Part shown: positions 2,491 through 62,637 of the stretch, piece after piece
Numbering within the stretch: the stretch's first letter is position 1
How the letters are laid out: every line of letters starts with the position of its first letter
Source of the DNA: Octopus vulgaris
Taxonomy: Eukaryota
DNA: 64,000 bases
Assembly: GCA_951406725.2 (NCBI GenBank)
Contig: OX597830.1
Location: 9,610,001-9,674,000 of the forward strand
Direction of reading: 5' to 3'
Program-made: the position numbers and the translations under genes
The notes under the pieces: generated by a model
Seen by the model: the letters and a program-made list of their open reading frames with translations, nothing else
Databases searched by the model: none
What the model was told of the DNA's origin: nothing

Positions 2491-3295
2491 AAAGAGATCA
2501 AAAACAATAACAATGGTAATATCATATTGTGAAATGGTGTTTCCTGACCCAGCTGGGCGGAAGAGAAAATATAGTAAGCTAGATTCTGTCAAAACAAGAC
2601 AGACTGGCGCCTCCAGCTACAAGACATTGTAGAATGGCCGGGTAGAACAAGAAGACATATATATACATACATATAAATATATATACATATATATATATAT
2701 ATATATATATATATATATATATATATATATATATATATACATACATATATATATATATATATATATATATATATATGTATGTATATATATGTATATATAT
2801 ATATATATATATATATATATATGTACACACCCACATAAGTACATACATATATACATATAGGCAAATATACACCCGTATATATGTATGCATATATATGTGT
2901 GCGTGTGTGCATAGATATGCATATAACCAGACATGTATTTGCATATGTATTAGTGTGTTTATATGTATATATAGATATATGCATGTATTGGTTGATAGAT
3001 GGACAGACAGACATACATTATATACATATATATGCATACATACATACATACATACATACATGCATACATATATATATATATATATATATATATATACATC
3101 CACTTATATGCATAAACATAAATAAAGGTGCCCCCCTCTCTCGCTTTTTGAGAGTATATATATATATATATATATATATATATATATATATATATATATA
3201 TATGTAAACGAAGAGCAAGCACAAAAGAAACAACAGCCTGAGGCCGTGGTGCATGCAAAGTATTTGCAGACGCTGAAGGAAGGAAAGAAAGGTGG

Positions 3296-3328
3296 TTTTA
3301 CGTTTCGAGCAAAGCACTTTTTCAGAAA
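3296..3328 (-). ncRNA. Degenerate minimal hammerhead ribozyme (family A)
   Basis: Minus strand TTT-CTGAAAA-A-GTGC-TTT-GCTC-GAAAC-GTA-AAA; G8->A and one stem II mismatch. Confidence 0.55.
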
Positions 3329-3565
3329 CAGGAGAGAGGCGAAAGTGCAATAGAAAAAGGAAGACGGAAGAAAAAAATCACCAGCATGTGGTTATATTTT
3401 GAATAAGTCCTGGGGTCGATTTGTTCGACTAAAGGCGGCACCTCCAGCATGGCCGTAGTCAGATGACTGAACCATGTGAAAGAATAAAAGAACATGTGAC
3501 CTCGTGAGTACCGCTGCCGATTTTTTTCCTCTGTCTTCCCTTCTCTGGATCTTTCCTTCTCCTAT

Positions 3566-3600
3566 GTTTCCGACGAAGAGCTCCGCTCGAAACGTTAAAC
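3566..3600 (+). ncRNA. Minimal type-I hammerhead ribozyme (family A, U4C core)
   Basis: GTTT-CCGACGA-A-GAGC-TCC-GCTC-GAAAC-GTT-AAAC: stem I GTTT/AAAC, stem II GAGC/GCTC, palindromic ACGT helix III. Confidence 0.7.
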
Positions 3601-4845
3601 CCTCCTTCTTCCCTTCTTTCCTGAGCGTCCAATAATACTTTATTTGTTCCACGTCCTTGCGTTGTTGTTTTTTTGTTTTCTTGTTTGGATTAACTTTATA
3701 TATATATACGTATATATATATATATATATATATATATATATATATATATATATATATCGCAAATTTTCATTATAGATATATATATATATATATACGTATA
3801 TATATATATATCTTTGTGTGTATGATTATGTTTGGAAATTCTTAGAAGGAGAAAAAAAGCAGAAGTGAAGATAGAGGCATAAGTTAGCCAAAGCAAATAT
3901 AGACATAAATAAAGATAGCATAGGCTTATATGTAACGAAAGTCTAATGAAGGGGAGAGAGAGACTGAGTGTGGCCCAGTCAGGCCCAGCCAAGCCCACAC
4001 ACACGGTAAGAGACAGTGAAGTAGCAGGGGTCGGAAGAAGAAATGAGGGATAAAGGAAATGGTAGGAGAGATAAAAGGCATGTAGGAATGAAATGCTAAA
4101 TGGAGATGGAGATCAAAAATTCTCTGAGCGTATGAGGAGAGAGGCTGCACGGGATTGGAGAAGAGAATACAGAGCAAGGGGTAGGCATATACGAAACACC
4201 GAGGCATGGTGACATGCAAATATATCCATATATATATATATATATATATATATATATATATATATATATATATATATATATATATATATATATATATATA
4301 TATATATATATATACACATATACACATATATACATACACACACACACACACACATATATATATATATATATACATATATACATATACATACATATATACT
4401 TATATGTGTACATATGTATATATATACACTTATATACATATACACACATATATATATATATATGTATATATAAGCATACGTATGTATATATACACATATA
4501 TACATATATATGCATATATATAAACATATGTATGAATATATACACATATACACATACATACATATATATATGTTAGTGTTGTATATGATATATGTATGTA
4601 TACATGATATATGTATGCATTTAAATAGAGAGAAAATAGAAGAAATAAAGGTCTACAGGAATGTAATGCCAGGCATAGATTTTCCTTTGTTGTATAGTGT
4701 ATATAATTATAAACGTATATACAACGATGATTACTTACATACATACAACCAGATACATATACAAACATTTGACGAGAAGCCTTGTGAATAATTCAGTCTT
4801 GTTTCACTTTCCCTCCTCTTCTCTTTCTCTCTCTCTCTCTCTCTC

Positions 4846-5258
4846 TCTTTACTCTTTTACTCTTTTACTTGTTTCAGTCATTTGACTGCGGCCATGCTGG
4901 AGCACCGCCTTTAGTCGAACAACTCGACCCCGGGACTTATTCTTTTGTAAGCCCAGTACTTATTCTATCGGTCTCTTTTTGCCGAACCGCTAAGTAACGG
5001 GGACATAAACACACCAGCATCGGTTGTCAAGCAATGCTAGGGGGACAAACACAGACACACAAACACACACACGCATATATATATATATACATATATACGA
5101 CGGGCTTCTTTCAGTTTCCGTCTACCAAATCCACTCACAAGGCTTTGGTCGTCCCGAGGCTATAGTAGAAGACACTTGCCCAAGATGCCACGCAGTGGGA
5201 CTGAACCCAGAACCGTGTGGTTGGTAAACAAGCTACTTACCACACAGCCACTCCTGCC
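4846..5258 (-). mobile_element. Dominant octopus-type tRNA-derived SINE, full length
   Basis: GCAGGAGTGGCTGTGTGGTAAG..GGTTCAGTCCC head, internal (TA)n(GT)n, (AGTAAAAG)n tail; about ten near-identical copies in the window. Confidence 0.9.
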
Positions 5259-59854: not shown

Positions 59855-60112
59855 AAGAAGCCTATCGTATATATATATATGTGTGTGTGTGTATATGTGT
59901 GTCTGTGTTTGTCCCCCTCAAACATCGTTTGATTACCAATGGTGGTGTGTTTACGTCCCCGTAATATAGCGGTTCAGCAAAAGGAGACCGATAGAATAGG
60001 TACTAGGCTTACAAACAAGAAGTCCTGGGGTCAAATTTGCTCGACTAAAGGCGGTACCCCAGCATGGCCGCAGTCAAATGACTGAAACAGGTAAAAGAAT
60101 AGAGTAAAAGAA
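59855..60112 (+). mobile_element. Dominant SINE, 3' two-thirds
   Basis: AGAAGCCTATCG..CAGCATGGCCGCAGTCAAATGACTGAAAC. Confidence 0.85.
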
Positions 60113-60805
60113 TATACATTTCTGTCTATATATGTGTGTGTGTTTGTGAGTGTGTGTATATACATATACATACATACATGCATGCATATATATATATATA
60201 TATATATATATATATATATATATATATGTATGTATATATACATATATACATATACATATATATGGATGTGTATATATATACATATATATATATGTATATA
60301 TACTATATAAATATAAATATATGTATGTATGCATATATATATCTGTGTGTATATATGTAGTCTTAATGGGCTCTAGAAGAGAGACATATTGTACCTCACC
60401 AACTAAAACAAAGCTAAATAGCAGAATATGGTGGATAAGGATCTTGTCAAAGGATGGTATATGGTTTCATTCCCAGATGAAATTAGTTGCTGTGATTTCC
60501 TAGCTAGATAAGTACTCTATTACTGTAGAATATTTGTTTTCCATATCAAAGAATTGGAGAAAGCCACCAAGGAGAGAGCTATGTCGATTGAACTCAGCTT
60601 AAGGTGGTTGCTTTGGGCAAGATACTGGAGGCTTCTTCAGAGGGCACAAATGTTAGGCAAGGAAAATGCGGGAAATCCAGTTAGAATAATAGAGAAGGGT
60701 AAATAAGATAAGATAGAGTAGAATAGGTAAAAATAAAAAAAATAGTAAATAATGGAATATAATATATATGGTACGAACTTCATTTTAAGGTGTTATTATA
60801 ATCCA

Positions 60806-61177
60806 CTAGCAGTATCGCCCGGCGTTGCTCGGGTTTGTAAGGGAAATAACTATAAAGCATTTTTAGAGAGTTATAGCCAAAAAATGGAAAAAAATTATGG
60901 TAAATTTTTTTTGAGAGTTAAAAAGGTCGAGTTGCGTCCCCTAGACAGCCTGTGGTTTGTGTTTTTGATTCTCGACCCCATGTCAAATTTATCGATTTTT
61001 TTCAGAACTGGGGGAACTTTTCAAAATTTTCGCTGCGTTAGTTTTGAATTATGACATTGGGCTATGTGTGTGTCAAGTTTTATCAGAATCAGTTGAAAGC
61101 CGTGGTCAGAGTGAGGGTACAACCTAACAGACACACAGACACGCAGACAGACAAACTGCCGTTTATATATAGAGAGA
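60806..61177 (-). mobile_element. Non-autonomous Helitron
   Basis: Minus strand A|TC...CCCGAGCAACGCCGGG..CTAG|T. The empty site (ATCCA|TG) can be reconstructed from the opposite arm of the host foldback. Confidence 0.9.
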
Positions 61178-61556
61178 TGATATTCCATCCTCTGGTAAGT
61201 AAGTTAAGTGACTCTCAGGAGATATATCCGTGGGCTGCACGGTTAACATCGTGATTCTATTATACTGCAGCCTATGGATATATCTCCTGAGAGTGACTTT
61301 ACTTACCACAGGAATAACATGGATTATAATAAAATCTTAAAATGAAGTTCTTACTTTTCCTTACCATCTCTATTACAATACATTATTTATTATATTTTTA
61401 TTTTTACCCATTTTACTCTATCTTATCTTGTTTACCATACTCTGTTATTCTAACTGAATTTCCCACATATTAGTTTCCTAACATTTGTACTCTCTGAAGG
61501 AACCTTGAGGCTCAACCCTTACCCAGTCTCTGTCCAATGTTTGTTCATCCCTGTAT

Positions 61557-61623
61557 ATCACTGACGTGATGAGGATGACTTAGAAAATTCTGAGGCCTCA
61601 TGGCAGAAACGGCCGTAGGTGAT
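61557..61623 (+). ncRNA. Decayed hammerhead motif
   Basis: ATCAC..ATGAGG..CCTCAT-GGCA-GAAAC-GGCC-GTA-GGTGAT; palindromic ACGGCCGT helix III, disrupted CUGANGA. Confidence 0.55.
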
Positions 61624-62637
61624 CTATATCAGTACACTCATCTATTACTATTAGTCATTCATCTCTCTCTATATATATCTGTTTACATATTTATTGGCTT
61701 ATCACATTCGTTTACTTGTACCATTTAAACACGTTTGTTACTTAATACATGGATATAATGGAATGTTTACTGGCTGATGTTTGTCGATTTTATATCCTCT
61801 CCATTTTCTTATATGCCTTATAAATCCTGGGTAAATTGCCAATTTACCGCCACCCATACCTAGTATTCAATTGCGATATTGCCCTCCAATAGTAAGTACT
61901 TGGTTAAAAATACGTAGGTACACACTCAGTAGTATATTGGATATTTAATATCCCTTAGATGGTTTCTTAACCTCTATATATATATATATATATGTGTGTG
62001 TGTGTGTGTGTTTGTGTGTGTATGCATATATATATATATATACTTACACACACACACACACACATATATATATATATATGCAGAGAGAGAGAGAGAGAGA
62101 GAGAGAAAGAGAGAGAGAGAGAGAAAGATAGATAGATAAACCGAAAATCATGCGGATAAGTTTAGATAAATGCTTCTATATATAGATATACGGGTGTATA
62201 TACATACTTACATATATACATATACATAGTATATATATATACACACACACATATATATATATATATGTGTGTGTGTGTAAACACACGCACACACATACGT
62301 ATACATGTCGCATATAAATATGTAAATATTTAATGTTTTAGTGACTGACGCATACTTTCATATTTCTAAATATTTTTTTATGTTTATTTTATAAGTTGAT
62401 ACCACAGATACAATACGATATACAGAACGACCTTGTCAGACACATAGTTTATTGTTAAGAAATACGCAATGTTTTAAAGAATAGCATGTGACGTTGTAAC
62501 GAAATACTATAAATATTTATTTAATCATTGCAAACACCAATTTAGTAAACAATGCGAATTACTTACGGTAACATGACCAGCAATAACCATTGATTGGTCG
62601 CCATTTTTGTTATTACTATTATTATTATATTTATTAT

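What the first reader, a model, noticed from the sequence alone, without database searches (positions are those of the whole stretch)
3205..61650. More than a dozen hammerhead ribozyme motifs from several unrelated short non-coding elements: a candidate community of non-autonomous Penelope-dependent retroelements
Seen: HHR-shaped motifs (stem I - CUGANGA - stem II - GAAA - tiny palindromic helix III - NUH - stem I') at 3296, 3566, 9578, 17784, 18728, 22327, 22593, 27176, 35022, 35237, 41887, 48655, 49255, 50547 and 61557. Stems differ between families but pairing is kept, and most lie about 100-150 nt upstream of a (TA)n junction. Established: Penelope-like element pseudo-LTRs carry minimal type-I HHRs whose palindromic helix III works as a dimer, and a GIY-YIG PLE lies at 8.25-9.8 kb. 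Inference: these are solo pLTRs or retrozyme-like non-autonomous elements targeting (TA)n, at roughly one per 4 kb. That would imply a very large, largely unannotated ribozyme load in this genome.
Basis: partly seen in the sequence, partly recalled or inferred. Interest (0 to 1): 0.85.

Follow-up and report, generated by a model that had tools for sequence, protein, structure and literature searches.

The report
Spliced, ribozyme-bearing Penelope retrotransposon offcuts
The ribozyme-shaped motifs are mostly real and are the known terminal repeats of several Penelope-type retrotransposons, but in one family the short copies lack a GT-AG-bounded segment that long copies keep and begin at one fixed base, so they are likely copies of the spliced start of the element's own messenger RNA, which bears on how these elements are thought to keep their introns.

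Summary
13 of the 15 listed sites belong to repeat families whose relatives carry a well-formed minimal type-I hammerhead (HHR). 61557 is a repeat with a non-canonical core; 18728 is single-copy and unconfirmed. Only 7 window copies keep their family's core. One motif class alone has 41,636 exact genome matches against 4 in the control (11,310 with canonical core). Six families (9 sites) run upstream into RT/GIY-YIG ORFs of Penelope-like elements (PLEs), so they are PLE pLTR ends, which is known. One family (35022) is a non-coding, tandem-forming, retrozyme-like unit.

The unexpected result: short copies pile up at a fixed 5' start. In family D (22327) long copies carry a ~1.1-kb GT-AG segment between a 27-nt first exon and the ribozyme; short copies lack it exactly (197 against 52 in one subfamily, 48 against 7 in another) and interleave with long copies on a tree. 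They are most likely cDNAs of the spliced 5' end of PLE mRNA, made by internal RT initiation. This argues against an antisense-only template model. Splicing and cleavage were not shown at RNA level.

The parts
22291..22317 (+). Family D exon 1 (27 nt), starting at the fixed +1 base and joined directly to exon 2 (intron-less copy)
   Evidence: long copies have GT here instead
22318..22455 (+). Family D exon 2 with intact HHR (core 22331, helix III palindromic with one G-U) up to the first RT start site
22456..22546 (+). Family D optional tail; in full-length elements it continues into the ORF start
22246..22290 (-). Family D inverted, 5'-truncated partner arm (head-to-head insertion in (TA)n)
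8252..9782 (+). Family P: 5'-truncated PLE (RT C-terminus, GIY-YIG to 9370, pLTR and tail); HHR remnant 9573-9646 with its 3' half deleted
3205..3382 (-). Family B (sister subfamily) pLTR copy, HHR with G8 lost
3494..3703 (+). Family B pLTR copy, HHR with U4C core (core 3570), ends in (TA)n
17716..17912 (+). Family A pLTR copy (A6U core family; this copy has lost G8)
41815..41968 (-). Family A pLTR copy, helix III broken
48559..48753 (-). Family A pLTR copy, family-type HHR intact (core 48686)
22576..22800 (+). Family J copy, degenerate core; stem I differs from relatives by two compensatory pairs
   Evidence: relatives in L237 and at window 56550-56781
27038..27245 (-). Family I pLTR copy; HHR core with swapped G3-C8 pair (core 27217)
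34733..35177 (.). Family E head-to-head pair (34733-34933 minus, 34935-35177 plus) of a ~360-nt non-coding, tandem-forming HHR unit; both HHRs damaged here
35177..35380 (-). Family C copy with intact HHR (core 35275, minus) and a short inverted partner arm (35286-35380, plus)
49127..49377 (+). Family C copy, truncated within its (AAT)n tract, intact HHR (core 49258)
50434..50836 (-). Family G pLTR copy, 99% identical to a full-length element; HHR core 50620 with long helix II and a bulged base
61280..61980 (+). Family H repeat with HHR-like but non-canonical core at 61561; parent not found; boundaries approximate
46400..46640 (-).
35520..35670 (+).
18726..18765 (+). Core plus helix II look-alike; single-copy, no stem I'; not confirmed

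Best explanation
The motifs are the hammerhead ribozymes in the terminal repeats (pLTRs) of at least six protein-coding Penelope-like retrotransposon families, and the many short solo copies are likely by-products made when the element's reverse transcriptase starts internally at the end of the upstream pLTR of its own RNA and copies back to the likely transcription start. Shown in sequence: ORF-linked long copies, a fixed 3' end with an optional tail, head-to-head arms, a pile-up of 5' ends at one position, and in family D exact loss of a GT-AG segment in short copies only. Inferred: that position is a Pol II initiator; the segment is a spliceosomal intron; the GIY-YIG domain nicks (TA)n or AT-rich DNA; priming at the upstream pLTR of spliced mRNA gives short processed copies, while priming at the downstream pLTR of unspliced RNA gives long, randomly truncated, intron-keeping copies; the inverted arm is a second priming event or fold-back. 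The template is likely uncleaved RNA, so the ribozyme is carried along rather than defining the ends. Family E is the exception and is likely a non-autonomous, retrozyme-like tandem unit moved by the same machinery.
For: ORF links: A (L019/L031, L006, L027), C (L075/L178), D (full pLTR-ORF-pLTR at L268 and L282), G (L210), I (L275), P (window, L228). Family D: long copies read exon 1 then GT, and TTTTAG then exon 2, 1.08-1.21 kb apart (14 of 26 non-spliced loci showed the acceptor within 1.5 kb). Short copies join the exons exactly. Exact genome counts: 600 spliced junctions, 137 unspliced acceptors, control 0; subfamily 1, 197 against 52; subfamily 3, 48 against 7. Of 40 spliced arms 17 start exactly at +1 and 36 between 18 nt short and 5 nt long. 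Of 19 head-to-head spliced pairs among the first 100 places listed, 15 have gaps of at most 28 nt, the most two arms ending at +1 can give; the 6 unspliced pairs lie 206-4,703 nt apart. On a tree of 72 exon-2 arms, starred branches force at least 6 switches and 3 sets of identical sequences hold both forms. Flank copies not chosen by their own query: A, 2 of 23 extend more than 100 nt above the core and 7 start at -72 to -65; B, 6 of 9 start at -87 to -77 and none is longer; C, none of 10 passes -220. G: 6 of 15 start within -14 to +3 of one site. I: 6,073 cores but 517 matches to the sequence just upstream of the start. 5' ends do not gather at the predicted cut site (4 of 78 D, 3 of 84 C, 2 of 35 I, 0 of 12 G, 0 of 57 A). 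Literature: internal RT initiation at two sites defining the tail, HHR not needed for insertion (PMC11167929); start site, short exon and intron in the Penelope pLTR (PMC2377424); intron end at helix I (PMC4209133).
Against: No RNA data were obtained, so start site, splicing and cleavage are inferred from DNA. Four spliced arms (2 loci) begin about 70 nt upstream of +1, so read-through RNA can be spliced or a second start exists. Intron loss was shown in one family only; my exon-1 guess for family I gave 2 matches. 9 of 15 G copies are long, ordinary truncations. No ORF was found in 30 B or 16 H loci, nor sought further for J, K, M. An intron-less Penelope promoter still gave transcripts in flies (PMC2377424), so processed copies may be transcribed and re-mobilised. 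The D loci used for 5'-end counts were chosen by a spliced query, and the tree is short (135 columns, bootstrap not settled). Most abundant cores carry variants (A6U, U4C, G3-C8) and may cleave poorly or not at all.
Confidence: 0.72

Rival explanations
1. The short copies are true non-autonomous families: a processed solo pLTR keeps an internal promoter, is transcribed by itself and is copied in trans by the PLE protein, like a SINE.
For: Defined 5' and 3' ends and large excess of short over long copies. An intron-less promoter is still transcribed in Penelope (PMC2377424). Family C short copies carry tRNA-like A and B boxes and 23 of 30 heads are followed by the HHR tail within about 330 nt. 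pLTRs act in trans (PMC3846280); non-autonomous PLE relatives are reported (PMC8557442; bioRxiv 10.64898/2026.07.22.740005). Family E fits this.
Against: Spliced D copies share subfamily markers and even identical exon 2 with intron-bearing copies in three subfamilies, as expected if each master sheds its own short copies. Short copies often keep the tail, which in full-length elements leads into the ORF.
Confidence: 0.2
2. All short copies are ordinary random 5' truncations of the 3' pLTR, and the apparent fixed start comes from microhomology with (TA)n targets or from hairpins that stop RT.
For: Known behaviour of PLEs (PMC8557442, PMC4209133). A starts lie at a TAT that can anneal with (TA)n; the C start region contains a small hairpin. 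9 of 15 G copies are such truncations.
Against: Cannot give the exact removal of a 1.1-kb GT-AG segment in hundreds of copies of three subfamilies, nor 17 of 40 arms starting on one base with varied neighbours.
Confidence: 0.06
3. The short ends are made by ribozyme cleavage and circularisation, as for tandem retrozymes, in all families.
For: Family E forms more-than-unit head-to-tail arrays of about 360 nt with a canonical-like HHR (6-bp stem I, GUC site) in L128, L137, L138, L144, L146, like the tandem retrozymes of PMC7229834.
Against: In A, C, D, G and I the 5' ends do not gather at the cut site and the HHR lies whole inside the unit; arms are head-to-head, not tandem.
Confidence: 0.02

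Closest known systems
[quoted passage not shown]
   Same: Extra base between 9 and 10.1, G10.1-C11.1, short stem I, palindromic helix III, many consensus families, mostly single motifs linked to truncated PLEs.
   Different: Higher count here (11,310 canonical-core and 41,636 relaxed matches of one class, against about 2,000-9,000 reported there). Family-wide A6U, U4C and G3-C8 cores; that text names U3-A8. No fixed starts or spliced copies in the parts read.
Drosophila virilis Penelope pLTR (Schostak 2008, PMC2377424; passages read)
   Same: Start site with initiator inside the pLTR, short first exon, intron, HHR right behind the intron's 3' end.
   Different: Intron about 1.1 kb instead of 75 nt; here intron-less genomic copies outnumber intron-bearing ones about four to one in one subfamily.
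Poseidon_Ac internal RT initiation (Frangieh 2024, PMC11167929; parts 1-2 of 4 read)
   Same: Two 3' ends separated by an optional tail; AT-rich targets; no sign that cleaved RNA is the template.
   Different: In vitro work on one lizard element; the parts read do not describe short genomic copies bounded by the start site or spliced copies.
Hydra-clade PLEs (Craig 2021, PMC8557442; passages and section 11 read)
   Same: Families D and G have RW/KW, DKT, CxCx5C linker, CxxC and CxH motifs, HHR and (TA)n insertion.
   Different: Units of 4.7-5.7 kb with long 3' UTRs, against generally under 3 kb; pLTR intron with processed copies not mentioned in what was read.
Non-LTR retrozymes (PMC7229834, passages; bioRxiv 10.64898/2026.07.22.740005, parts 1-3 of 5)
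   Same: Family E: non-coding ~360-nt unit, type-I HHR, head-to-tail arrays, PLE-like ends.
   Different: Arrays here are under two units in the loci seen and often head-to-head; no circular RNA shown. The other families are not tandem. Axolotl has up to 120,000 HHRs, so the load here is high but not a record.

Membership tests
PLE minimal type-I hammerhead | CUGANGA and GAAA boxes with NUH site | tested here: met
   Met in C, D, G, E, J, K, M relatives and part of B; A has A6U, most B and P have U4C, I has G3-C8
PLE minimal type-I hammerhead | Stems I and II kept with compensatory changes | tested here: met
   J stem I
PLE minimal type-I hammerhead | Palindromic helix III able to pair between two copies | tested here: met
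   21 of 22 motif clusters against 4 of 9 shuffled hits (partly built into the descriptor for 2-nt loops); self-duplex -0.2 to -14.9 kcal/mol
PLE minimal type-I hammerhead | Self-cleavage as a dimer or with protein help | not testable with these tools
   no assay; DNA copies show no pile-up at the cut site
EN+ Penelope-like element | RT plus C-terminal GIY-YIG upstream of the pLTR | tested here: met
   A, D, G, I, P; for C only the GIY-YIG end was seen. Pfam support is weak; the call rests on motifs and tblastn
EN+ Penelope-like element | pLTR-ORF-pLTR tandem, inverted partner, optional tail | tested here: met
   L210, L268, L282; tails and inverted arms
EN+ Penelope-like element | ORF link for families B, H, J, K, M | tested here: inconclusive
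   no tblastn hit in B and H loci; few J, K, M relatives held
EN+ Penelope-like element | Introns retained in genomic copies | tested here: inconclusive
   Retained in long D copies, absent from short D copies
Hydra clade (D, G) | RWK-like motif, DKT, CxCx5C linker, CxxC and CxH, (TA)n targets | tested here: met
   against section 11 of PMC8557442; P lacks the CxCx5C linker in the part held
Hydra clade (D, G) | RT phylogeny with reference Hydra elements | not tested
   no reference set on hand
Neptune clade (I, A) | CX2-5CxxC linker before the GIY-YIG | tested here: inconclusive
   met in I (L275); only CxxC left in the broken A copy
Non-LTR retrozyme (family E) | Non-coding tandem unit of 150-450 nt with type-I HHR | tested here: met
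   more-than-unit arrays in 5 of 25 loci; 4 of 25 loci had PLE protein matches, none contiguous with the unit
Non-LTR retrozyme (family E) | Circular RNA expression and self-cleavage | not testable with these tools
   no RNA data
Non-LTR retrozyme (A, B, C, D, G, I) | Head-to-tail tandem non-coding units | tested here: not met
   solo or head-to-head copies, ORF-linked parents
tRNA-derived SINE (family C head) | tRNA homology with A and B boxes | tested here: inconclusive
   A- and B-box patterns present; no ARAGORN or Rfam hit
tRNA-derived SINE (family C head) | Independent of an autonomous element | tested here: not met
   the head lies in the 3' UTR behind a GIY-YIG ORF

The most novel reading that the evidence does not exclude
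PLE reverse transcriptase routinely copies spliced, sense-strand mRNA by internal priming at the upstream pLTR, scattering hundreds to thousands of processed solo pLTRs per family, each with a ribozyme. Intron retention in PLEs is then not due to an antisense template but to which pLTR is primed, and such processed offcuts are the raw material for SINE-like and retrozyme-like non-autonomous elements (family C with a tRNA-like head, family E as a tandem unit).
Probability: 0.6. Interest if true: 0.75.

Novelty: new variant of a known kind. Interest (0 to 1): 0.58.

Why it matters
How PLEs keep introns is stated to be unknown (PMC8557442), and one published model invokes an antisense template because head-to-head palindromes are common (PMC3846280). 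Head-to-head insertions with both arms spliced require a sense, processed template, so family D gives a natural test of that model and genomic support for the internal initiation seen in vitro. It also explains why minimal hammerheads are found mostly as solo motifs, lets start sites and introns of PLEs be read from DNA alone, and offers tens of thousands of natural core variants (A6U, U4C, G3-C8) for ribozyme assays. The motifs as such, their PLE link and (TA)n targeting are known.

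Tried and rejected
Rfam scan: no hammerhead among the 150 best of 409 matches listed, nearly all microsatellite artefacts. First descriptor without the extra base found 1 site. 18728 and 58627: no relatives. An intron with a short exon 1 in family I, suggested by a branch-point and acceptor-like sequence: the predicted spliced junction has 2 genome matches, rejected. 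A spliced full-length D element at C11: it is a 5.5-kb segmental duplication of one short insertion. Family C head as a free SINE: 23 of 30 heads are followed closely by the HHR tail and the head lies behind a GIY-YIG ORF. Ribozyme cleavage as the maker of 5' ends: no pile-up. A cap-derived extra G before +1: 6 of 17 arms have G, but in several it can come from the partner arm; not claimed. RNA evidence: no RNA holder listed; no reads were laid, so splicing and expression stay open. A random genome sample for density was not obtained; density comes from pattern counts. Literature: Lunse 2017 was not held, so whether A6U or G3-C8 cores are described there is unknown. Searches for spliced or intron-less PLE copies, for octopus PLE hammerheads and for tRNA-derived PLE-linked SINEs in cephalopods listed no such report. 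Repbase, Dfam, subscription papers such as Arkhipova 2003, and the bioRxiv supplements could not be seen and may hold these families.

Full report
Setting. The window is G000:C17:9610001-9674000 of a 2.8-Gb animal genome, 34% GC and full of microsatellites. The best named homologs of one of its PLE proteins come from an octopod, and its SINEs resemble octopus SINEs (recalled, not tested).

Observation. A descriptor for type-I hammerheads with the extra base typical of PLE motifs finds 4-5 clean sites against 0-0.3 in shuffles. Genome searches with each window copy place 13 of the 15 sites in families whose relatives have a complete motif: A (1,885 candidates), B (1,295), C (3,694), D (1,270), E (320), G (2,129), I (2,352), P (2,534) and J (relatives in held loci). 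Seven window copies keep their family's core; six are damaged. 61557 (H) has a palindromic helix III but an expanded core and is unverified. 18728 is single-copy. Two more sites (46573, 35533) belong to such families. Pairing is kept with compensatory changes. One relaxed pattern covering A, B and C has 41,636 exact genome matches against 4 for the reversed control, 11,310 with a canonical core; the I core adds 6,073. The load is real, larger than the 2,000-9,000 per genome in PMC4209133 and smaller than the axolotl's 120,000 (PMC7229834). The distance-to-(TA)n claim holds for 4 of 15 window sites, though 3' ends join (TA)n in most A, B and G loci and half of I loci, and in no C locus.

What the families are. 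Longer copies lead upstream into PLE coding sequence. A continues into GIY-YIG and RT. C continues into a GIY-YIG end. G has a full pLTR-RT-GIY-YIG-UTR-pLTR copy. D has two such copies. I continues into an RT end, a CX2-5CxxC linker and GIY-YIG. P is ORF-linked in the window. D and G carry the Hydra-clade motifs listed in PMC8557442. So 9 of 15 sites are pLTR ends of protein-coding PLEs, with the optional tail and inverted partner arms known for the class. No ORF turned up in 30 B or 16 H loci. Family E is different: a ~360-nt non-coding unit with a canonical-like HHR that forms more-than-unit head-to-tail arrays in 5 of 25 loci as well as head-to-head pairs, close to a non-LTR retrozyme.

The short copies are not random truncations. 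Among copies met by chance in flanks, 2 of 23 A copies extend more than 100 nt above the core and 7 start at -72 to -65; 6 of 9 B copies start at -87 to -77; none of 10 C copies passes -220. Six of 15 G copies start at one site, the other 9 are long. For I, the sequence just above the start has 517 matches against 6,073 cores. Several of these starts look like initiators (pyrimidines, then CA; consensus recalled). In C the start lies just above a tRNA-like stretch with A and B boxes that sits in the element's 3' UTR (no ARAGORN or Rfam hit).

Family D gives the mechanism. Searching with sequence upstream of the fixed start returned long copies in which a 27-nt exon is followed by GT, and TTTTAG lies 1.08-1.21 kb further on, 13 nt before the ribozyme core. 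Short copies, including the window's at 22291, join the two exons exactly. Exact counts: 600 spliced junctions, 137 unspliced acceptors, 12 donors for a tight pattern; 197 against 52 in subfamily 1; 48 against 7 in subfamily 3. Of 40 spliced arms 17 start on the +1 base and 36 between 18 nt short and 5 nt long; 4 arms at 2 loci start about 70 nt higher. Spliced head-to-head pairs are nearly all bounded by +1 (15 of 19 gaps at most 28 nt), whereas unspliced pairs lie hundreds to thousands of bases apart. Both pLTRs of the full-length copies keep the acceptor. Spliced and unspliced arms interleave on a tree, with identical exon 2 in both groups three times (short alignment, rough support; overlapping loci and re-fetched loci were left out). 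The layout matches Drosophila Penelope: start site, short exon, intron, ribozyme at the intron's end (PMC2377424, PMC4209133).

Model. RNA starts inside the upstream pLTR and is spliced. PLE RT initiates internally at the pLTR boundary (shown in vitro for another element, PMC11167929). Priming at the upstream pLTR of the mRNA yields a 165-400-nt cDNA from the RT start back to +1, intron-less where there is an intron. Priming at the downstream pLTR yields long, variably truncated copies that keep the intron. 5' ends do not gather at the ribozyme cut site, so uncleaved RNA is the likely template. Shown: ORF links, ends, exact segment loss, counts. Inferred: start site, splicing, priming route, and why the downstream pLTR stays unspliced. 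The main rival is that processed copies then propagate on their own; the interleaved tree argues against it for D but not for C or E.

Against the reading. No RNA evidence was obtained (one search listed no RNA holder). Intron loss is shown in one family; the same idea failed for I. D loci for the 5'-end count were picked by a spliced query, though the pattern counts were not. Cleavage is untested and the most abundant cores are variants: A6C and U4C lower activity according to PMC3088659 (passages read), and a C3G/G8C double mutant is partly active (PMC11167929).

Novelty. PLE hammerheads, solo motifs, (TA)n targeting and PLE-derived retrozymes are in print. Processed, start-site-bounded pLTR copies were not found in six searches of the library, but Repbase, Dfam and several key subscription papers were not visible. 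PMC3846280 proposes an antisense template to explain intron retention and head-to-head palindromes, and puts solo pLTRs down to recombination or deletion; spliced head-to-head arms do not fit an antisense-only route. Verdict: new variant of a known kind, interest 0.58.

Noticed in passing
Family I, window 27038-27245 (-); 6,073 exact genome matches: The whole family carries a swapped G3-C8 pair in the hammerhead core, a natural version of the laboratory rescue mutant; the papers read name only U3-A8 as natural.
   Followed up: partly
Family C, e.g. L075:1348-1690, L077:1351-1690: A PLE 3' UTR holds a tRNA-like stretch with A and B boxes, then (AAT)n, then the HHR; short copies start near the tRNA-like 5' end and often form palindromes centred there. 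Possible PLE-moved SINE-like element.
   Followed up: partly
Family A; about 30,000 of the 41,636 matches have A6U or U4C: The most abundant hammerheads carry non-canonical cores while position 7 varies freely.
   Followed up: partly
L210:2840-5364 (G000:C1): Young Hydra-type PLE (pLTRs 99% identical to the window copy) with RT and GIY-YIG in two frames and a 1.7-kb 3' UTR.
   Followed up: partly
G000:C6:72319137-72319442: Five D acceptor matches at 69-nt spacing, partly inverted: a small satellite-like array born from a pLTR fragment.
   Followed up: no
L236, L234, L022, L248 flanks: Further HHR-like motifs with palindromic helix III from families not present in the window.
   Followed up: no
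window 6434-6946 (-) and 63565-63993 (-): Fragments of LINE-type retrotransposons; the second has a Pfam zf-RVT hit, the first has none and is called from its translation.
   Followed up: no
window 38519-38600 (+), 50882-50983 (-), 56550-56781 (-): Additional 3' remnants of families A, B and J without an intact ribozyme.
   Followed up: partly
window 7747-8159, 9863-10025, 49889-50322 and about 20 more places; 53670-54331: Abundant SINE-like repeats; they often sit in the same (TA)n tracts as the PLE copies.
   Followed up: no
L283 (G000:C11:10385000-10392200): 5.5-kb tandem segmental duplication that also holds another GIY-YIG-like fragment.
   Followed up: partly
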